The notes below the pieces were generated by a model. That model saw nothing but the letters and a program-made list of their open reading frames with translations. It did no database searches and was not told where the DNA came from. A stretch of 10,796 nt of DNA from contig JBEKDF010000061.1 in assembly GCA_050014495.1 (NCBI GenBank), positions 1 to 10,796 of the forward strand, in the 5' to 3' direction. Shown piece after piece: positions 1,009-10,796 of the stretch. This DNA is from Candidatus Bathyarchaeia archaeon (GTDB taxonomy: Archaea > Thermoproteota > Bathyarchaeia > TCS64). Within the stretch, counting starts at the first letter, position 1, and every line of letters starts with the position of its first letter. A program made the position numbers and the translations under genes.

Positions 1009-1254
1009 ATGAATGTGCTTGACCACCTGAAGAAGAAGGAGATCATAGAACTCGGCTGCGATCTCATTCGGCAACCTAGTCTGACGAGGCAAGAGGGACC
1101 TGCCGTGAAGTTTGTGAAGGATTGGTTTGAGGACAAAGGTTTTGACGAAGTCACCCTGCAAGAGGTAGAACCAGGTCGAAACCAAGTAATCGCAAGGCTG
1201 AAGGGAGATGGAAAGGGTAAGAGCATGATATTCAACGGCCACCTCAATATATAA
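1009..1254 (+). pseudogene. Truncated M20 family metallopeptidase/deacylase (ArgE/DapE-like), N-terminal 81 aa only
   Basis: DLIRQPS..E, GRNQVIARLKG.G.GKSMIFNGHL is the standard M20 N-terminus. It stops at the H-x-D Zn ligand motif (GHLNI*), whereas intact proteins are about 400 aa. AT-rich non-coding DNA follows at once. Confidence 0.88.
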
Positions 1255-2063: not shown

Positions 2064-2146
2064 TATTATTTCGCGTTGTATTCTAAAGAAACCACTAAAA
2101 AGTTAATCCCTTGTTTTTTTCATTTTCATAGTGGATAAGACGGGCC

Positions 2147-2174
2147 GGACTTGAACCGAAACGGGTTCAGGTCT
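2147..2174. repeat. Imperfect 11-6-11 palindromic site, copy 2
   Basis: GGACTTGAACC-GAAACG-GGTTCAGGTCT. The arms are 9/11 complementary. Confidence 0.65.
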
Positions 2175-2201
2175 GTTTAGTAGCACATTGGGAGGTATCC
2201 A

Positions 2202-2234
2202 CCTAAAATTTTATTCCATTAGTATTCGTTTATG
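2202..2234 (+). repeat. 33-bp direct repeat, copy 1
   Basis: CCTAAAATTTTATTCCATTAGTATTcGTTtATG. First 25 nt identical to 4718-4742; 31/33 overall. Confidence 0.92.
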
Positions 2235-2985: not shown

Positions 2986-3022
2986 GTGCTTGCGCAAGTA
3001 TTGAACCAGAATTCATAGAGTA
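2986..3022 (+). repeat. Intergenic two-armed hairpin motif, site E (degenerate)
   Basis: GTGCTTGCGCAAGTATTGAA-CCAGAA-TTCATAGAGTA. Confidence 0.4.
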
Positions 3023-3057
3023 ACTAATCATTTACTTTCGTTTTTTCAATTTTGCGT

Positions 3058-3402
3058 ATGTCTCAAAGTAAGGATACATTTACGGCTGGCGAGGTTCGTG
3101 AACTCGTCTACTATAGTCAGACAGTAATTTTTGACGCCGTCCAAGCGCCGTTGAGGGCTAACAAAGAGGAGTGTGAGGCGATCACACTCAGGATGCTGAG
3201 GCAGAACGCAAGGTTAGCGTTCTATCCTGAGTTGATTCTCGAGGAGATTTCTAAAGAGGAGGTGAATGGTGGCGGTTCTTTGAGCAGAGAGTTTAGGGAG
3301 TCTCTGTTTAATCTGCTTGGGAATAGAAGCCAGGAAGTTGTCTCTTTAAGTGATGATGATTTGATTCGGGAGGTTAAGAGGCAGGTTAGAAGCTATCACT
3401 AA
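3058..3402 (+). CDS. Hypothetical protein (about 114 aa, helical, charged)
   Basis: The ORF track gives 3052 (TTG); the ATG at 3058 is the likelier start. Protein-like composition, no motif recognised. Confidence 0.65.
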   Translation: MSQSKDTFTAGEVRELVYYSQTVIFDAVQAPLRANKEECEAITLRMLRQNARLAFYPELILEEISKEEVNGGGSLSREFRESLFNLLGNRSQEVVSLSDDDLIREVKRQVRSYH

Positions 3403-3567
3403 TACGTGTGATTGAACCAATTTTCCTTTTACTCGTAAATGGAAGATTCGTTTGGGGAGTGATCTCTCTGGAGGACACCGGTGCGCTGCTAGACGTTATG
3501 TTGAAGACAAGAGTAGATCCGTGCCACTACTTTGGGATCCCAAGCTAAGCGTTGAGTTTCCTGCTAC

Positions 3568-3645
3568 CGTGCGCGCAGTGAGTTCTATCCGTAATCATTG
3601 GAAAATAACCTCGCCTTCCTGAGTACTGGTATTATCTCGTGTGTG
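3568..3645 (+). repeat. Intergenic two-armed hairpin motif, site D
   Basis: CGTGCGCGCAGTGAG (3568-3582) ... CTCGC CTTCCTGAGTACTGGT (3615-3630) ... CTCGTGTGTG. The ends can pair with G-T wobbles. Confidence 0.45.
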
Positions 3646-3653
3646 TTATATAC
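3646..3653 (+). promoter_or_regulatory. Putative archaeal TATA box for a leaderless transcript
   Basis: TTATATAC 25-32 nt upstream of the ATG at 3678, with no SD sequence. Confidence 0.5.
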
Positions 3654-3677
3654 AAAAATACATCTAAAGTCAAGTAA

Positions 3678-4676
3678 ATGGTCCCTGAAAGGCTTCTCGA
3701 AAAGGATATTGAGGATATTTTAGAGAAACATCATGACTATTTCATCGAGCCTGGACTGAAATTTAAAAGCAGACAAGTCTCAGTCAAGGGTGGTCGAGCA
3801 GATCTTCTATTCGTAGATAGATTCGGGGATGAGTTGCTGGTCGAGCTTAAACGGGGAACCGTGAAAAGGGAAGCAATAGCCCAGCTCATCGACTACCTTG
3901 GCAATCTTGCTAATGAAAATTCGCGAATGAGGCTTATGCTTATTGCAGGTAGTATACCCGCAAATTGGAAAAATGCGTTAGACCGACAGGGGATAGAATT
4001 TAAGGAGTATATCGAACGAGATTACCTGACTTATCTTGAAAATAACGACAAAGAATTATTAGAGAAAATTCTTCAGTCACAAAGCGTCTCTGCATCAACC
4101 TCGATCCCTCTTTCAACTAATAATGAGTCGATTATCAGAGAGTTGTACCCTGAGGAACGCCTAATCGTCAAAAACTATGCTGATTTTATGAGGGACCCTC
4201 GAGAAGGTGAAAAATTTGTCGAGGAGGTTAAGGCGCTATTTGCGATGGTTCAGGGAGATGAGCTCACGGAGAAAGGACCTGGAACAAAGAATGCTTGGAT
4301 TCTCATAAAACGTGGCGGCGTCATTGTTGCGAGGGCACACACCCTCAGGGAAAAGTATGAGCTTAAGGAGTATTCTAAACGTGTTTATGATTCTGGTCCA
4401 AGAGTTTCATCTAGATTGAGTAAGTATGAGGATTTGTTACCCCATATGGAACCACTGAGCGGTAAGTTAGTGGGTGATTACGTGATTCTGCCCTTTGATA
4501 TTCTGAAGGGTGTTATGAATAGAAGTGGTGAAGAGATGAATCAGGCGAGACGTGCACTTCAATGGTTTCTCAGAAACAGGTATGGCGCAGTTGTAGCTGA
4601 TAATATGGGAGACTACCTCAGTTTTGGTACAACTGTTGGGGCAATTAAGGTAATTAAAACTAAAGAATTTCCATAA
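3678..4676 (+). CDS. NucS/EndoMS-like (DUF91) PD-(D/E)XK endonuclease domain fused to an unknown C-terminal domain
   Basis: N-terminal LEKDIED...RQ....GRADLL..D....LLVELKRG......AIAQL.DY matches the NucS catalytic domain. A Ser-rich linker (SQSVSASTS) is followed by about 180 unassigned aa. It lacks the N-terminal domain of true NucS. Confidence 0.85.
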   Translation: MVPERLLEKDIEDILEKHHDYFIEPGLKFKSRQVSVKGGRADLLFVDRFGDELLVELKRGTVKREAIAQLIDYLGNLANENSRMRLMLIAGSIPANWKNALDRQGIEFKEYIERDYLTYLENNDKELLEKILQSQSVSASTSIPLSTNNESIIRELYPEERLIVKNYADFMRDPREGEKFVEEVKALFAMVQGDELTEKGPGTKNAWILIKRGGVIVARAHTLREKYELKEYSKRVYDSGPRVSSRLSKYEDLLPHMEPLSGKLVGDYVILPFDILKGVMNRSGEEMNQARRALQWFLRNRYGAVVADNMGDYLSFGTTVGAIKVIKTKEFP

Positions 4677-4687
4677 AGGATACGGGG

Positions 4688-4700
4688 TTTCTTTTTTTTT
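4688..4700 (+). terminator. Oligo-T tract, probable archaeal terminator
   Basis: TTTC followed by T9, starting 12 nt after the stop of the NucS-like gene. Confidence 0.55.
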
Positions 4701-4717
4701 CACTATATGCGCGCACG

Positions 4718-4750
4718 CCTAAAATTTTATTCCATTAGTATTTGTTAATG
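4718..4750 (+). repeat. 33-bp direct repeat, copy 2
   Basis: CCTAAAATTTTATTCCATTAGTATTtGTTaATG, 2516 bp from copy 1. Confidence 0.92.
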
Positions 4751-4967
4751 ATTTAGCAAGATGGACCAGACTTATACCAATATGAGTATAGGTCCATATT
4801 TTAGTTTGTTATTTTTGAAACCCCGCCAAAGGAGGGGCTAGTTCGTTAAAAAGTGAGGCTGGTTAGATTTGAACCACGCAGATGTGGAGATATCCCCCGA
4901 ATCCAACCCCTTTTTTTTATCTTAATTCTTTAGGATAATACATGTAAACAACTAGTTGAACGTATAT

Positions 4968-5007
4968 GTTTAAGCGCAGAGGAAGAGCTTCAGAGTATGG
5001 TTTAGAC
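4968..5007 (+). repeat. Intergenic two-armed hairpin motif, site C
   Basis: GTTTAAGCGCAGAGGAAG-AG-CTTCAGAGTATGGTTTAGAC. Confidence 0.5.
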
Positions 5008-5101
5008 TAGTATAATCAGTTTACCTTGTTTAAGCGAATTGAAATCGTAATCGAAAAAAACTCCTGTGTTAGTGTGAAAGTTGGTTGTTTTTTAAGCTAA
5101 T

Positions 5102-6034
5102 ATGGCAGAGGGTGTTTTAGGTATTATCATGGGGAAGCAACTCTCTCCCGAGTTATCTAAAGCGGTTGCCGAGTTCAAAAGTTACCTTCAAACCGAAGAT
5201 GGAAAATTACATTTTAATTACTTGAAGGTGAAAGAGCCTACCGAAACGAAAAATGTATTGAAAAGACTTCATTCTCTGCCGATACAGAGCGACGAGTTTG
5301 TAGAGCTTGTTCTCTATGGGCTACTACCTAATTTTAAGACGAAATACGCGAAGAGAGTGAGCGTCTCACCTTCTTTCATGAATATCAGGAAGTTCTTCGG
5401 TCGGTTCAACTACTCTGAAAATGATTGGAAGGAACTGTCTCTACTTGTTTACAATCTCATTTCAAAATTCGAGCAGAACCCCTCGCACTTGGACGAGTAC
5501 ATCCGTGATTTCATCTCATATAAGCTGAGCAAGGGCTTGCAGTGTGGGTCCGTCTCACCAATTTTCTTCGCATTGAACCCTAAGTTCCCAATTATAAACA
5601 ATAGAGAGAAGCAAACTTATGATGAGCTCTCATTTCACGTTCTGGATCTAGAAGACGAACTAAGCCAAAGGCTTGAGAACTACATTTCCAACGTATCAAA
5701 GGTTGACAAGCTGATTGAAGTGCTAGGGAAGGATTACGCATTCAAAGAGGTGGGAGATTATGCAATCTTTGACCTTTTTTGCTTTTGGTACACGGAGAGA
5801 AACAAGCTGGTCAGAAAAACAAAAGTACAAAAAGTCCGGCAAGCAACCCCGCAGGGGTCTCCGATAGAGGACAGGGAGATGGCTAATTTCATTCAAGCTA
5901 TGAAGTGTTCTGATCCCAGGGCGTTTTTCATCGGCATGACTGATGGGCCATTAAACCTCTACAAGCTCGACTCAGATGGTAGGATCATCTACAATACCGA
6001 GTTCCAACGTGGTGAGGTTTGGGATAAGCCAAGC
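5102..6034 (+). pseudogene. 5' part of a DUF262 (GmrSD N-terminal, ParB/Srx-like) domain gene, interrupted by an IS
   Basis: After about 240 aa of helical N-terminal domain and a linker comes GRIIYNTEFQRGEVWDKP, the opening FQR..VW motif of DUF262. The last 10 aa of the track ORF are read from the IS end. Start at 5102 or 5129. Confidence 0.8.
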
Positions 6035-7316
6035 GCGCGCGCTGCCCTGTCCCTAAATTCAGAATAAACTTATCTTAACAGTAAGGGTCCCGTCACCTAT
6101 GGCGGCAACCAAAGGAGGTCATTCCGTTAGGACAAGACGAACACGAGACCCTTGAAACACTCTTCAAAAACGTCGACTTAAGCATTGCCCAACAGCAAAT
6201 CATCGGATGCTACCACACATCAGGTCCAGGGAGGCCACCCCGAAACCCGCTTGGCATCTTAAGAGCCCTCCTCATCATGAGGTTGAAGGGAATACGCAGC
6301 CTCAGGGAGCTCACAAGGATCCTCGACATAGACCTCCGCCTCAGAAGGCTCTGCCTCATCCGCCCCAGACAAAGAGGTTACACCCGATCAGTCATCAGCC
6401 GCTTCACCAGACGCGTCGGAGCAGAGACACTTCAACTCATCATCGAGGATAAGGTCATCTGGCTCCTACGAAGGAGCAAAGTGGAGGATGTTGACGTGCT
6501 TCTGGACGCCAGCTTCATCAAGGCCCGAAGCATCAGACACCCCGACGACGGCAGACGAGGCTTCTCAGACGCCAACGCCATGGTTGGGAGGAACGGACGC
6601 TTCTACGGCCTCGGATACAAGCTCCACGTCGCGGTGGACCACCGCAGCGTGCTGCCTCTCGCCACCCTGCTTGCCCCGGCTAATGACAACGAGAAGAAGC
6701 ATGGGCCGGCGCTGATTGAGAGGACCCGGGTGGTTCTGGGGAAGGCTGGGGCGAGGCTTCGGAGCCTTGTGGCGGACAGTCAGTACAGCAGCAGGAAGGT
6801 GAGGGGTCTCGTTGAGGACTCGGTGATACCTTACACGTCTAATCAGAGTGGCGAGGATGTGCTTCGGGTTGATCGGAGGTTCAGGACATATGGCCCCGCT
6901 GGGTTAGTGGTTGAGTACCATAAGCGGTCGTTGGTGGAGTCGGTTTTCAGCTTCTTGAAGGACCAGTATGGGTTGAGGGTGAATAACGTTAGGGGTCTGC
7001 TGAATGTGTCGGTGTACGCGTTGCTGAGTTTGCTGTGTCATGTGCTGGGTCGGGAGGCGGCGGAGAACGTGGGTAGGCCGGAGAAGGCGTTGTCGCCGAC
7101 GTTTTTCAATACTTGAGTATGTGTTCGTCTTTGGCTTGGGGGTGGGGTTGTTAGTGGGCGCCAGGTTTATGGTTCTTCAATGGGTGCGGATTCGCGGTTT
7201 GTGTGTTGGTGTGTCCGTGTTTGGTGGTCGGTTTATGTTTGCTAGGGGTCTTTGGTTGGGTCTTAGTGGATGAGAATCTGCGTGTGGGCTCTATTTAGGG
7301 ACAGGGCAGCGCGCGC
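6035..7316 (+). mobile_element. Insertion sequence, DDE type of the IS4/IS5/IS1182 group, 1282 bp
   Basis: Perfect 24-bp inverted repeats GCGCGCGCTGCCCTGTCCCTAAAT (6035-6058) and ATTTAGGGACAGGGCAGCGCGCGC (7293-7316), a single transposase, and high GC. The exact termini within the GC run are ambiguous. Confidence 0.93.
6121..7116 (+). CDS. DDE transposase (DUF772-like N-terminus plus DDE_Tnp_1-like core); start codon uncertain
   Basis: Catalytic LLDAS, VADSQY and a Y-x2-R-x3-E-x6-K signature (YHKRSLVESVFSFLK), plus GYKLH. The frame is open from 6085 and encodes GRPPRNPLGILRALLI upstream of the first ATG (6277). SD AAAGGAGGT at 6111-6119. Confidence 0.9.
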   Translation: MPLGQDEHETLETLFKNVDLSIAQQQIIGCYHTSGPGRPPRNPLGILRALLIMRLKGIRSLRELTRILDIDLRLRRLCLIRPRQRGYTRSVISRFTRRVGAETLQLIIEDKVIWLLRRSKVEDVDVLLDASFIKARSIRHPDDGRRGFSDANAMVGRNGRFYGLGYKLHVAVDHRSVLPLATLLAPANDNEKKHGPALIERTRVVLGKAGARLRSLVADSQYSSRKVRGLVEDSVIPYTSNQSGEDVLRVDRRFRTYGPAGLVVEYHKRSLVESVFSFLKDQYGLRVNNVRGLLNVSVYALLSLLCHVLGREAAENVGRPEKALSPTFFNT

Positions 7317-7535
7317 AAGGATCCAAAGAGGGCATATGATTATTGCGAGAAACTCACGGTATTCGATAGAGATAAAGGGATTTGCCAGATATGCGGAAAA
7401 GTGACTGCATTTGACAAGGGTACTGTTGACCACAAGATACCTCATAGTAAAGGTGGCTTTACGACCATAGAGAACGGCCAATGGTTATGCATAGAAGACA
7501 ACCTCAAGAAGCTCGCCAAGTTACCTGAGAGTTAA
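7317..7535 (+). pseudogene. 3' fragment encoding an HNH endonuclease domain (probable C-terminus of the DUF262 gene)
   Basis: Manual translation KDPKRAYDYCEKLTVFDRDKGICQICGKVTAFDKGTVDHKIPHSKGGFTTIENGQWLCIEDNLKKLAKLPES* shows CxxC, DH.IP.SKGG, EN...LC...N. It has no start codon and is missing from the ORF track. Confidence 0.9.
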
Positions 7536-7536
7536 C

Positions 7537-7622
7537 GATGAGTTCGCGCACGCGCAGTTGAAGGATGTGTTCAATTCCAATATGAAAAGTGACGAACACA
7601 GAAAGAGTTTCACACGCGCCTA
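7537..7622 (+). repeat. Intergenic two-armed hairpin motif, site A
   Basis: GATGAG..GCGCACGCGCAGTTGAAGG (7546-7564), internal stem TGTGTTC/GAACACA, then CAGAAA-GA-GTTTCACACGCG (7599-7618). Confidence 0.65.
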
Positions 7623-7715
7623 TGCGAGTCAATAGTTTTCAGGTCGTAATGCATGAAAGTATTAGTACATGCAATCCATAGAACGTATATTTTCGTGTAA
7701 GTATTATCTATTGAC

Positions 7716-8198
7716 TTGTCAAAAGAACAACTTATCCAAAAGTTGAAAGCCGCCTCTCTCTACGCGGAGTGCCCTAAGTGTCACGGAGAGTTCAAGTTAG
7801 GTGACGCCTTGCTATTCGATGGCCTAGGTCCATTCCCTCATGAAGCCCTTGAGGTCCAAGCTCAGCTCCAGGCAGAGATCGAAAAAAGGGCTAAGCAGCT
7901 CGACAAGAGGTCAGCGATGGCTGACGCGGGTGCGGAGCAGAGGGCGATAGCTTCTGGCTTGGGTAAGATTCTTGAGACGGTCATCCCAGCCCACAGGGAC
8001 TTCAAGATCCCTCTCTACGACTGCAGGCCCTTGTATGAGCCCATTGATCTAATCGCCTTCAACGGACTTGGAAAGGGCGAGGTCAGTAGCCTCGACTTCA
8101 TCGAGATAAAAACTGGGAAGGCTCGGCTCAACGAGCACGAAAAGGCCGTGAAAGAGGCAGTTGAATCGAATAAAGTGGATTATAAGGTGATTAAATGA
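7716..8198 (+). CDS. Holliday-junction-resolvase-like endonuclease (Endonuc_Holl type) with N-terminal CxxC
   Basis: G...E...P, PIDLIAFNGL, FIEIKTGKARLNEHEKAVKEAVE: a complete PD-(D/E)XK set. CPKC motif and a coiled coil. TTG start, with GAACGTATAT promoter-like box at 7681-7690. Confidence 0.85.
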   Translation: MSKEQLIQKLKAASLYAECPKCHGEFKLGDALLFDGLGPFPHEALEVQAQLQAEIEKRAKQLDKRSAMADAGAEQRAIASGLGKILETVIPAHRDFKIPLYDCRPLYEPIDLIAFNGLGKGEVSSLDFIEIKTGKARLNEHEKAVKEAVESNKVDYKVIK

Positions 8199-8698
8199 GC
8201 GCCGGATTCGTGGATTCATTCCAGGACCTCCGCACAATCCTCTGCGTGTGTCCATGCTGTGGCGAGCTAGTTAGGGCTAGTGAACTGCACCTAAGCTTGC
8301 ATGGAAAGGCTCCGAAGACGTGGCTCGACGATTACGAGGCGGAGCTGCATAGGCTTGAGGATCGTGAGGATGAGTTTGAGGCTAACGCAGCTGAGGTTAA
8401 ACAAGCGGCGATTGAGAGAGGCCGTAAGAAGGTTGTGGAAAGGGCCTGCTCTTGCCTCGACTCTAGTATAGCTTGCTTTAATTATGACCCCTATGACATT
8501 AAGGCTCTCTTCCACCCTGTCGACTTCGTAGTCTTCAATGGCTTAAACGCGGGTGAGGATCTAGATGACATCACTTTCCTCACTAGGCAGAGGCGTGGGG
8601 ACTTGATCCAGAAATCGGTAGCTAAGGCGATTAAGAATGGCAAGTACAACTGGAAGGTCGCCAGGGTCACGGAGGACGGTGGAGTGGATTACGAATAG
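8195..8698 (+). CDS. Paralogous Holliday-junction-resolvase-like protein, catalytic ExK motif absent
   Basis: CPCCG, coiled coil, KALFHPVDFVVFNGL, then DITFLTRQ where the partner has FIEIKT. ATGA overlap with the upstream stop. Confidence 0.82.
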   Translation: MSAGFVDSFQDLRTILCVCPCCGELVRASELHLSLHGKAPKTWLDDYEAELHRLEDREDEFEANAAEVKQAAIERGRKKVVERACSCLDSSIACFNYDPYDIKALFHPVDFVVFNGLNAGEDLDDITFLTRQRRGDLIQKSVAKAIKNGKYNWKVARVTEDGGVDYE

Positions 8699-8700
8699 AG

Positions 8701-8784
8701 TAGATGAGCGCTTGCGAAGTGGAAGGTGATAACGGGGTCTTTTTGGACCAACTTCAGAAACTTGTTTTACAGGCGACCAATCTA
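8701..8784 (+). repeat. Intergenic two-armed hairpin motif, site B
   Basis: GATGA-GCGCTTGCGAAGTGGAAGG (8708-8726), internal stem GGTC/GACC, then CTTCAGAAA-CTT-GTTTTACAGGCG (8752-8775). Outer pairing TAGAT/ATCTA and CGCTTG/CAGGCG. Confidence 0.65.
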
Positions 8785-8935
8785 AAGAGACCTAACGAAG
8801 AATTCATTGATATTTTTAAAAAAGTTGAAGAATATTAATTAACAAGTTATGATTTTATGATTCATAAAGTATTAAAAAAACATTGACTACTGGAGATTTG
8901 ATAAGAACTCAGGAATTTTGCTAGGTGTATCTACT

Positions 8936-9529
8936 GTGAAAAAGAGCCTATTAATCCTCGAGCTGACATCTGAGAAAATTGAGAAAAAATCGGAAGGTTG
9001 GCTATTATTTGAATTAATAAAGATATTGTGGAATGAAAGTAGAGTTGAGTTTCCTAATTCGGTTGGAAAGACCAATTTTCTTGATGCATTAAAAAATACT
9101 GAACACAGATATGTTCACGTAAGTAGCCATGGATATTCAGGAGTCAGAGGTACAAGTCTCCAAGTCCAGAGAAAACGTAATGGTCGATTCATGAAAATTA
9201 AACCAGAGGATTTCAAAGGGCTATGGGAGAACCATAAAAAAACTCCAAAGCTCATTGTTTTATCGGCTTGTGATGCGGGACATCAAGATATGATTAAGGC
9301 TCTTGCTAAGGAGGGAGTAAAGCATGTTATTGCACCTCTTCATACGACATTTTGGGATTACACGGCTGCTTTCTCAATCTTGTTTTATAAGTCGCTTCTT
9401 GGGGGAGGGCATAGTCCCTGGGTTTCATATAGAAAGGCTCAATTAGGAATGGATGCAGCTTTTCCTGATTCTACTGGCAAATGGAGATTCTATGAGTGGG
9501 GAGAATATATTCCTTTGATTAAAGAGTAG
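8936..9529 (+). CDS. Stand-alone CHAT-domain (caspase-like, clan CD) protease
   Basis: YVHVSSHG (His) and KLIVLSACDAG (Cys), followed by GVKHVIA and F...FYKSL..G, typical of CHAT. The GTG at 8936 has AGGTG 8 nt upstream; the track start is TTG 8918. Confidence 0.78.
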   Translation: MKKSLLILELTSEKIEKKSEGWLLFELIKILWNESRVEFPNSVGKTNFLDALKNTEHRYVHVSSHGYSGVRGTSLQVQRKRNGRFMKIKPEDFKGLWENHKKTPKLIVLSACDAGHQDMIKALAKEGVKHVIAPLHTTFWDYTAAFSILFYKSLLGGGHSPWVSYRKAQLGMDAAFPDSTGKWRFYEWGEYIPLIKE

Positions 9530-9538
9530 AATGCACGT

Positions 9539-10796
9539 TTAGATAGATTTGTCAAGTAAGGCTATTGACAGGACTTCTTGGAGGTTTGTTACGGTTGTTA
9601 TTTTCAAGTCTTTTAATATGTATGGGGGTAGGTTTTGTATCTCGTTTTTATTGTCTTCGGGGATTATTACTTCTTTGACTCCTGCTTCGAATGCTGCTAA
9701 TACTTTCGCTTGAATACCCCCGACAGGGAGTACTCGTCCCATAATTGTTATTTCTCCAGTCATCGCTAAGTCGTTTCTCACTTTTTTACCTGTCAGAGCT
9801 GATACTATACCGGTTACAAGGGTTATTCCAGCGGATGGGCCTTCTTTTGGAATAGCCATGTATGTTGCTAATACAGCAACGTCGTAATCGTCGCGCCAAT
9901 CTAGGGATATTCCGAGTTCCTGGTGCTTTGCTTTGATATATTGAGCGGCTGCTTCGACACTTTCTTTCATTACACGTCCTAGTGATCCTAAGGGGACTAT
10001 TCGTCCGGAGCCTTTGGATGCTTGCATCTCGAAGAGCATGATGACTCCTCGGTCTCCAGATACTCCTAATCCGATTACTTCGCCAACCGATGGGGTCGCT
10101 GGTAGAGCTATCCTTTGTTCTCGGCGTGAGTCTGGGAGAATTGGAACTAGGATGTTGCCTGTTTCGAGTATTTTCGTTCCGATCTTAACTTTTTCGTATT
10201 CTCCTGGGGCCATTAAATGAAGTTGGTTTCTTACCCTTTGTCTAAGTTCGCATGAGATAAGCAATGATTCTTCAAGTTCTTCGTTTGAAATCTTTCCGTT
10301 GGGATAAATTAATTTCATTAGACCTGATAATGTCTTGAAAATGGCTCTTTGATCTCTACCCGATATTCCTCTAAGGGTCTTAGCGTCATCAATTACTTCA
10401 AAGCGCATTCTAATATCGTCGATTGGATTTGTTTTTCTTAGTTCATGCATTATTTCGCAGAAGTAGTCTGTGATGAAGCCATAGTCTTTTGCATAACTGG
10501 TGGGAGAAAGCTTGGGGATTTCCCATCCAGGTATGTAGGAGTGGATTCTGTCGAGGAATGCTAATTCCTGTAGATAGTCGGGGAAGGGTTCGAATAGGTG
10601 ATAATATTTTTCGTGTGGAAGGCTGCCTTGGACATCGATGTTTCCGACAAAAACAAGGCTTCCAAATGCTAATACTTCTTTTTTACCTCTGCTGAATTTC
10701 GCGTCTTGCATATATCCTTGCATGATGCTTACGAATGTTTTTGGGTCTGTAAAGTATGTGTTCGCTATTTCATCGAATACGACAACGTCTCTTGTA
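9539..10796 (-). CDS. brxL: BREX-associated BrxL: AAA+ ATPase plus C-terminal Lon protease domain (partial, 5' end beyond the window)
   Basis: The frame is open to the window edge ([11 protein letters not shown], Walker B). BrxL ATPase motifs [40 protein letters not shown]. Lon_C motifs [22 protein letters not shown]. Confidence 0.92.

What the first reader, a model, noticed from the sequence alone, without database searches (positions are those of the whole stretch)
2986..8784. Recurring two-armed hairpin motif in the spacers between co-oriented accessory genes: candidate non-canonical gene-cassette array
Seen: five spacers carry a related element. The best pair is A (7546) GCGCACGCGCAGTTGAAGG versus B (8708) GCGCTTGCGAAGTGGAAGG, 15/19 identical, both preceded by GATGA within 5 nt of a stop codon. 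After an unrelated internal stem-loop both continue CAGAAA-N2-3-GTTTYACASGCG (10/12). Site C (4974) is GCGCAGAGGAAG-AG-CTTCAGAGTATGGTTT. Site D (3568) is CGTGCGCGCAGTGAG...CTTCCTGAGTACTGGT. Site E (2986) is GTGCTTGCGCAAGTATTGAA-N6-TTCATAGAGTA. Each lies about 65-230 nt upstream of the next + strand gene (hypothetical, NucS-like, DUF262-HNH, nuclease pair, CHAT) and can fold as an imperfect hairpin. Known: conserved ends, a variable central hairpin and one site per gene describe integron attC arrays, but these sites lack the RYYYAAC/GTTRRRY boxes. Inference: they are recombination sites, or a structured RNA element, of an undescribed system that stockpiles defence genes. C, D and E are degenerate, and no recombinase is in the window.
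Basis: partly seen in the sequence, partly recalled or inferred. Interest (0 to 1): 0.8.

Follow-up and report, generated by a model that had tools for sequence, protein, structure and literature searches.

The report
tRNA-Ser integration scars in archaeal island
The repeated motif is not an integron-like hairpin: site C is a copy of a serine-tRNA tail plus a conserved arm that recurs in rows beside that tRNA in related archaea, sites A and B are likely older decayed copies, D and E look like chance, and the region is likely a pile of defence genes left by repeated insertion of tRNA-targeting mobile elements.

Summary
No site folds better than shuffles, and of ten pairs only A–B beats chance (p about 0.01). 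Site C is the reverse complement of this genome's tRNA-Ser(CGA) 3' tail plus a 25-nt arm. The same site lies 1.25 kb behind that tRNA on contig C60 and in co-oriented rows in relatives, where the flank switches at the tail. At some copies the frame runs through the site into a tyrosine-integrase fragment, so the att site lies in the integrase gene, as for suicidal integrases. A and B match the same tail at 11 of 13, in C's orientation, and are probably decayed copies. Their right arms match no known arm, and an A/B model finds no convincing copy in 78 relatives. D and E are GC-run noise. Best reading: tandem accretion at tRNA att sites (CIME- or tycheposon-like), not an integron. The scan noted a tRNA-Ser array of this kind before on other Bathyarchaeia DNA (e1-6521134).

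The parts
4974..5010 (-). Site C: attR-type scar of the tRNA-Ser(CGA) family; 12-bp tRNA tail (4974-4985) plus 25-nt conserved arm (4986-5010); no integrase frame follows it here
   Evidence: Exact 12-nt match to the tRNA-Ser(CGA) end; copy on C60 behind that tRNA; E=4.7e-12 to a model built without the window; frame stops right after the core
7552..7564 (-). Site A left arm: probable decayed tRNA-Ser tail
   Evidence: 11/13 to the genome's own tail, 12/13 to a sister-genus tail; one of 5 non-coding hits genome-wide at <=1 mismatch to five tail variants; rank 108 of 311 with an 18-nt array profile
7599..7618 (.). Site A right block shared with B; unexplained, possibly a diverged arm
   Evidence: no match to 127 fetched tail-following sequences beyond chance level
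8714..8726 (-). Site B left arm: possible decayed tRNA-Ser tail
   Evidence: 11/13 to own tail; rank 34 of 311 with the 18-nt profile; rank 94 of 25,911 with the two-block C model
8752..8775 (.). Site B right block, resembling both A's block and the start of the C arm
   Evidence: low score to the C arm profile (1.2 bits)
8704..8838 (+). 44-codon ORF overlapping site B; no homologue outside the same strain
3568..3582 (.). Site D left part: GC run, not a family member by any test run
2986..3021 (.). Site E: short GC palindrome, not a family member by any test run
2141..2173 (-). att-like scar: 18-nt tRNA-Val 3' fragment plus 10-6-10 inverted repeat (a second, weaker palindrome at 2037-2062)
   Evidence: family found in 12 of 71 genomes, often joined to tRNA tails
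2202..2234 (-). Conserved element arm (CCTAAAA family), copy 1
   Evidence: 33-nt direct repeat with 4718; family in 19 of 71 genomes, controls 0, mostly joined to tRNA-tail-like sequence
4718..4750 (-). Conserved element arm (CCTAAAA family), copy 2; its tRNA tail is replaced by a GC run
4769..4794 (.). 10-6-10 inverted repeat of the same family as 2148-2173
4858..4925 (-). Arm resembling the tRNA-tail-linked sequence beside a CHAT homologue in G319
   Evidence: pairwise alignment, (one comparison only)
3052..3402 (+). Hypothetical gene (cargo)
   Evidence: no Pfam or PADLOC family
3678..4676 (+). NucS-like PD-(D/E)XK nuclease (cargo)
   Evidence: PF01939 E=7.7e-10
5102..6034 (+). N-terminal part of a DUF262-HNH gene, broken by an IS with loss of about 280 codons
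   Evidence: homologues of ~667 aa at up to 63% identity carry PF03235 and PF01844
6035..7316 (+). Insertion sequence (DDE_Tnp_1 + DUF772) with 24-bp terminal inverted repeats in a GC run
7317..7535 (+). HNH C-terminal piece of the broken gene
   Evidence: PF01844 E=1.1e-9
7716..8698 (+). Pair of Endonuc_Holl genes (cargo between A and B)
   Evidence: PF10107
8918..9529 (+). CHAT-domain gene (cargo); homologues sit next to tRNA-Val and tRNA-Leu att scars
9539..10795 (-). BrxL (BREX Lon-like protease), cut by the contig end

Best explanation
Site C is a tRNA-Ser(CGA) tail joined to a conserved arm, likely the attR-type scar of a tRNA-targeting integrative element, and A and B are likely older, decayed scars of the same kind, while D and E are likely chance GC-run look-alikes. 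Inferred mechanism: circular elements carry an att site inside the first codons of a tyrosine-integrase gene and recombine with the last 12-14 bp of tRNA-Ser(CGA). Each insertion fuses the integrase body to the tRNA end and leaves arm plus tail at the far side. Repeated insertion pushes older elements outward; these lose their integrase and remain as att-bounded cargo blocks. The window is likely the outer, decayed part of such a pile, mixed with scars of sister elements that target other tRNAs and reshuffled by IS elements. Shown: sequence identity of C, its copies, flank switching, and integrase frames at copies in relatives. Inferred: recombination itself, the order of events, membership of A and B (about 55%), and any link of this contig to the tRNA.
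For: C matches the tRNA tail exactly over 12 nt, and a second copy lies in direct orientation 1.25 kb behind the tRNA on C60. The metagenome scan gave 13 stretches: 4 of this locus, 1 of the C60 locus, 6 from other strains or species, 2 unrelated look-alikes; the shared sequence ends at the tail and CCA/TTT ends are swapped between tRNA and repeat. G002 has six co-oriented copies on two contigs, G012 and L074 have the tRNA plus two copies each; sister genera have rows with other arms. At L078 and L099 the frame reads through arm and tail into a protein 53% identical to a PF00589 integrase. In 16 of the 22 best loci examined a called tRNA ends within 75 nt of that integrase match, tRNA-Ser(CGA) in 8. 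Of 46 tRNA tails only Ser(CGA) matches the five spacers at <=2 mismatches, three times (C, A, B), all in one orientation; background gives P(>=2 extra) about 1e-4 for the spacers, and 3 matches against 0.17 expected in the whole window. Other co-oriented scars lie at 2141-2234 and 4718-4925.
Against: The tail test for A and B was chosen after seeing the data and the 13th base helps them; with 12 nt two further hits appear on the other strand (5 against 0.8 expected). A and B rank poorly with models that include the arm, and their right block matches none of 127 tail-following sequences better than chance. No tRNA-Ser gene or integrase is on this contig; the tRNA is on C60 and no join was found; G000 had no match to the Ser-type integrase query. 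No joint at any site in 8 of 20 listed runs, contigs only. Distant homologues of the nuclease pair do not show the A/B motif on inspection (part was cut from view). No homologue of the 5102 gene was found beside a Ser att site.
Confidence: 0.6

Rival explanations
1. Only C (and the scars the reader missed) are att remnants. A and B are a chance pair: a GC run followed by a purine-rich, Shine-Dalgarno-like stretch, with B possibly the start of a small ORF.
For: A-B p=0.01 becomes about 0.1 over ten pairs; GC runs are 14-19 times enriched between genes; the A/B left-arm pattern occurs in 4 of 400 other genomes, with 1 control hit, and most relaxed hits are inside genes; the A/B covariance model finds 1 of 78 other genomes at E=0.18; B lies in a 44-codon ORF.
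Against: Only the Ser(CGA) tail among 46 matches the spacers, at both A and B, in C's orientation; relatives' arrays contain equally decayed tails just after stop codons; the ORF has no homologues.
Confidence: 0.3
2. A-E are single-strand hairpin recombination sites (attC-like) or a structured RNA of an undescribed cassette system.
For: One site per spacer in one orientation; A and B share two blocks; cargo is defence-like.
Against: No folding signal on either strand; no R-box pair enclosing any site; no Rfam match at E<=1; no further copies by covariance model or in viral contigs; C is fully explained by the tRNA tail.
Confidence: 0.05
3. A, B, D and E are footprints or targets of the GC-run-targeting IS family, or ends of a decayed miniature element.
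Against: The sites share nothing with the IS ends beyond GCGC; no multi-copy family in the genome.
Confidence: 0.05

Closest known systems
Tandem accretion at tRNA att sites with cis-mobilizable elements (CIMEs), streptococcal ICE/IME model (PMC5704250, passages read)
   Same: Elements stacked at one tRNA end, older ones without integrase but keeping att sites.
   Different: Archaeal; no conjugation genes seen; att lies inside the integrase frame; scars of several tRNA specificities are mixed.
Tycheposon-seeded tRNA islands of Prochlorococcus (bioRxiv 10.1101/2020.12.28.424599, passages read)
   Same: Partial tRNA copies and integrase fragments scattered outward from a tRNA; cargo accumulates distally.
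   Different: Shared core here is 12-14 bp rather than about 40; no replication or packaging modules seen; different integrase arrangement.
Suicidal (type I, SSV/pTN3/pT26-2) archaeal integrases (PMC7253208 passages; PMC8371274 section 17 and passages)
   Same: att site inside the integrase gene; the C-terminal part is left fused to the tRNA end.
   Different: Reported att identity is 40-50 bp and tandem insertion was not observed in those data sets; here 12-14 bp, rows of sites, at most a few codons upstream of the core, and PF00589 rather than PF16795 in the two proteins scanned.
Archaeal integrons and CALINs (bioRxiv 10.1101/2022.02.06.479319, part 1 of 4 read)
   Same: Short accessory genes separated by repeated sites, often with no recombinase nearby.
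   Different: No attC fold or R boxes; sites derive from a tRNA end; cargo on both strands.

Membership tests
Integron / CALIN (attC array) | RYYYAAC and GTTRRRY boxes enclosing the site | tested here: not met
   With one mismatch allowed, box pairs occur in the spacers but none encloses A, B, D or E with the expected pairing; none found in spacer E
Integron / CALIN (attC array) | Stable bottom-strand hairpin with extrahelical bases | tested here: not met
   DNA folding z from -1.0 to +0.7 on both strands
Integron / CALIN (attC array) | IntI integrase with its extra domain in the genome; hit to curated attC models | not tested
   13 PF00589 matches in G000 were not checked for the IntI insert; IntegronFinder models are not available here; Rfam gave no match
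Tandem tRNA-att accretion / CIME-like island | Co-oriented copies of a tRNA 3' end bounding cargo | tested here: met
   C and its family in G000 C60, G002, G012, L074, L084; for A and B inconclusive
Tandem tRNA-att accretion / CIME-like island | Flanks differ between strains exactly at the site | tested here: met
   Left flank switches at the tail in the aligned copies; not shown for A or B
Tandem tRNA-att accretion / CIME-like island | [quoted passage not shown] | tested here: inconclusive
   tRNA-Ser(CGA) is on C60; orientation is compatible but the window ends in brxL and no join was found
Tandem tRNA-att accretion / CIME-like island | Excision or mobilisation in cis by a neighbouring element | tested here: inconclusive
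   No joints in 8 runs, contigs only, which drop rare forms
Suicidal (type I) integrase element | att site within the integrase reading frame; int(C) fused to the tRNA end | tested here: met
   In relatives; no integrase fragment at site C itself
Suicidal (type I) integrase element | Substantial int(N) at attR, 40-50 bp att identity, PF16795 domain | tested here: not met
   Arm conservation ends 25 nt from the core, identity 12-14 bp; PF16795 not listed for the two full fragments scanned
Suicidal (type I) integrase element | Recombinase activity on these sites | not testable with these tools
   Needs an in vitro or in vivo recombination assay

The most novel reading that the evidence does not exclude
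Bathyarchaeia run an integron-like gene-stockpiling system built on tRNA tails. A family of tyrosine integrases whose start codon lies in the att arm, three codons before a 12-bp core, switches itself off on insertion, is rebuilt in frame by the next tandem insertion, and shuffles integrase-less defence cassettes (DUF262-HNH, nuclease pair, CHAT, BREX) bounded by C-, A- and B-type sites. The codon at that position is NTG in 17 of 18 copies (7 TTG, 4 CTG, 3 ATG, 3 GTG), and rebuilt frames are seen at L078 and L099, whereas tandem insertion was not observed for described suicidal integrases.
Probability: 0.2. Interest if true: 0.7.

Novelty: new variant of a known kind. Interest (0 to 1): 0.4.

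Why it matters
It replaces a proposed new hairpin system with a testable known-type mechanism and gives a precise target: a 12-bp tRNA-Ser core, a 25-nt arm and a named integrase family in an abundant uncultured archaeal class. If the in-frame rebuilding of these integrases in tandem rows is real, it bears on the open question of how self-disrupting archaeal integrases persist and excise, and on how Bathyarchaeia exchange defence genes. The window itself is a decayed example, so better loci (G002, G012, G143, G254) should be used.

Tried and rejected
Rfam scan: no match at E<=1. Single-site and profile nhmmer and a two-block PWM in the own genome: only the C60 copy of C. A/B left-arm patterns in 401 class genomes and 18 genus genomes: near control level, mostly coding; one G011 hit after a stop codon was not reproduced by the covariance model. 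DNA search of 7400-9000 in 61 genomes: nothing meaningful. Covariance model from A+B (two sequences, strict filters): 1 of 78 other genomes at E=0.18. Viral contigs: three patterns and one protein query, nothing. Contigs of 8 of 20 listed runs laid on the window: joints only in or across the IS; no RNA holder listed. A 13-nt sister-genus tail pattern matched 62 of 71 genomes and was too loose except to locate tRNAs. Four 3-mismatch rows (G038, G257, G213, G011) were not examined. Hammerhead, C/D-box and SECIS readings were considered from recall and dropped for lack of their core motifs; not tested by a call. No MEME or IntegronFinder was available. No supplements were read; element tables in them could already list Bathyarchaeia examples.
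Full report
Setting. The window is the whole contig C61 of G000. Homologues of its genes come from records titled Bathyarchaeota or Bathyarchaeia, so the host is taken to be a Bathyarchaeon. Runs holding the DNA are peat and wetland metagenomes. The contig carries a NucS-like gene, a DUF262-HNH gene broken by an IS with about 280 codons lost, two Endonuc_Holl genes, a CHAT gene and brxL.

Observation. Every quoted string is at its coordinate. As a family of five hairpins the claim fails. Folding energies equal those of shuffles (z from -1.8 to +0.7). Of ten spacer pairs only A-B exceeds chance in a two-block alignment (p=0.010 with 200 shuffles; 6 of 500 comparisons with real spacers score as high), and whole-spacer alignment gives p=0.063. 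GCGC runs are 14-19 times enriched in non-coding DNA genome-wide, which accounts for the start of all left arms. A covariance model from A and B finds only A and B in G000 and one E=0.18 hit in 78 other genomes.

Site C. Its first 12 bases are the reverse complement of the end of tRNA-Ser(CGA). The same 37-nt site lies on C60, 1.25 kb behind that tRNA and in direct orientation. A metagenome pattern scan returned 13 stretches: four are this locus, one the C60 locus, six come from other strains or species, and two are unrelated look-alikes. In aligned copies the shared sequence stops at the tail, and CCA and TTT ends are exchanged between the tRNA and the repeat, as expected for hybrid att sites (inference). 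G002 has six co-oriented copies on two contigs that both end in a copy; G012 and L074 have the tRNA plus two copies; L084 has two. Sister genera have rows of their own tail variants with other arms. Cargo lies on both strands and modules hold one to several genes. A model built without the window scores C at E=4.7e-12.

The recombinase. On the tRNA strand arm and core read in one frame. At L078, L099 and at the tRNA of L074 the frame continues into an integrase-like protein. That fragment is 53% identical over 70 residues to a 313-residue PF00589 protein fused to tRNA-Leu in G016. It matches in 53 of 401 genomes; in 16 of the 22 best loci examined a called tRNA ends within 75 nt of the match, tRNA-Ser(CGA) in 8. 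So the att site lies inside the integrase gene, as in suicidal integrases (PMC7253208, passages; PMC8371274, section 17 and passages). It differs in the short core, the very short upstream part and the rows of sites; PMC7253208 states that tandem insertion was not observed in its data. The codon three positions before the core is NTG in 17 of 18 copies; reading it as the start codon is a guess, since four are CTG and DNA-binding constraints could explain it. At window site C a stop follows the core, so C is the far-side scar. G000 gave no match to the Ser-type query but has 13 PF00589 matches, two with frames running through tRNA ends.

Sites A and B. Both match the genome's own tail at 11 of 13, in C's orientation. 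Of 46 tRNA tails only this one matches the five spacers at two mismatches or fewer; 12 background hits in 527 kb of non-coding DNA give P of about 1e-4 for two extra hits. In the whole window there are 3 matches against 0.17 expected. A is 12/13 to a sister-genus tail. Against this, the test was chosen after the fact; with 12 nt there are 5 matches against 0.8, two of them on the other strand; models that include the arm rank B 94th and A 2,793rd of 25,911, or 34th and 108th of 311 non-coding hits; and their shared right block matches none of 127 tail-following sequences beyond chance. B also overlaps a 44-codon ORF without homologues. I put their membership at about 55%. D and E pass no test.

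Better scars lie at 2141-2173 (18-nt tRNA-Val fragment with a 10-6-10 inverted repeat), 2202-2234 and 4718-4750 (a 33-nt direct repeat), 4769-4794 and 4858-4925. The two patterns occur in 12 and 19 of 71 family genomes and are mostly joined to tRNA-tail-like sequence. Those with a direction point the same way as C. CHAT homologues sit beside tRNA-Val and tRNA-Leu att scars in G009 and G143.

Mobility. Contigs of 8 of 20 listed runs show joints only in or across the IS; same-population contigs cross A, B, D and E unbroken. Several of these runs may be the source of the DNA, and contigs drop rare forms. The sequence beyond brxL is not in the G000 assembly, so the link to the tRNA is open.

Comparison. 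It works like tandem accretion with integrase-less CIMEs (PMC5704250, passages) and like tycheposon-seeded islands with scattered partial tRNAs (10.1101/2020.12.28.424599, passages); arrays at one site are also noted for thaumarchaeal elements (PMC6563490, passages). It is not an attC array as described for archaea (10.1101/2022.02.06.479319, part 1 of 4). Two literature searches combining Bathyarchaeia or Bathyarchaeota with integrase and tRNA terms returned no paper holding all terms; a looser one listed virus papers and general reviews. The library lacks most subscription journals. The scan's own notes already describe a tRNA-Ser array in Bathyarchaeia (e1-6521134), seen only after my reading was formed.

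Verdict. A real but mixed signal: one certain att scar, two probable decayed ones, two chance matches. New variant of a known kind; interest 0.4.

Noticed in passing
window 2141-2234, 4718-4750, 4769-4794, 4858-4925: Further att-like scars of other tRNA specificities; the two 33-nt repeats bound a 2.5-kb block with the NucS-like gene.
   Followed up: partly
window 6035-7316: IS in a GC run; the DUF262-HNH gene has lost about 280 codons at this point, which suggests an IS-associated deletion.
   Followed up: partly
window 1009-1254 and 1618-2049: Truncated peptidase-like ORF (by appearance; no Pfam match) and an IS66 transposase fragment at the left edge of the island.
   Followed up: no
G000 C18:40320-41315 and C44:18614-19897: Tyrosine-integrase frames running through the 3' ends of tRNA-Pro(GGG) and tRNA-Leu(CAA).
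   Followed up: partly
G000 C3:28255 and 31972, C10:45299, C42:15950, C63:4965, C5:85679: tRNA-Lys or tRNA-Arg tail fragments with element arms, or the 10-6-10 palindrome, far from any tRNA gene; the C5 copy is 300 nt behind an integrase gene.
   Followed up: partly
L078:4070-4369 and L099 site 14183: Tandem junctions that rebuild an integrase reading frame for about 90-100 codons.
   Followed up: partly
L237 (G143:C8) and L238 (G254:C4): Dense tRNA-Ser(CGA) rows with four and three tail copies besides the tRNA, several just after stop codons.
   Followed up: partly
L038 (G011:C25:16469-16487) and G000 C82:3420-3493: Single look-alikes of the A/B left arm directly after stop codons; not recovered by the covariance model.
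   Followed up: partly
G000 C66:3336-5053: Three tandem paralogous small membrane-protein genes, related by appearance to a cargo gene in the G002 array.
   Followed up: no
L075 (beyond the window's right end): Same-strain contig continues with full brxL and a large methyltransferase-like ORF absent from the G000 assembly.
   Followed up: partly
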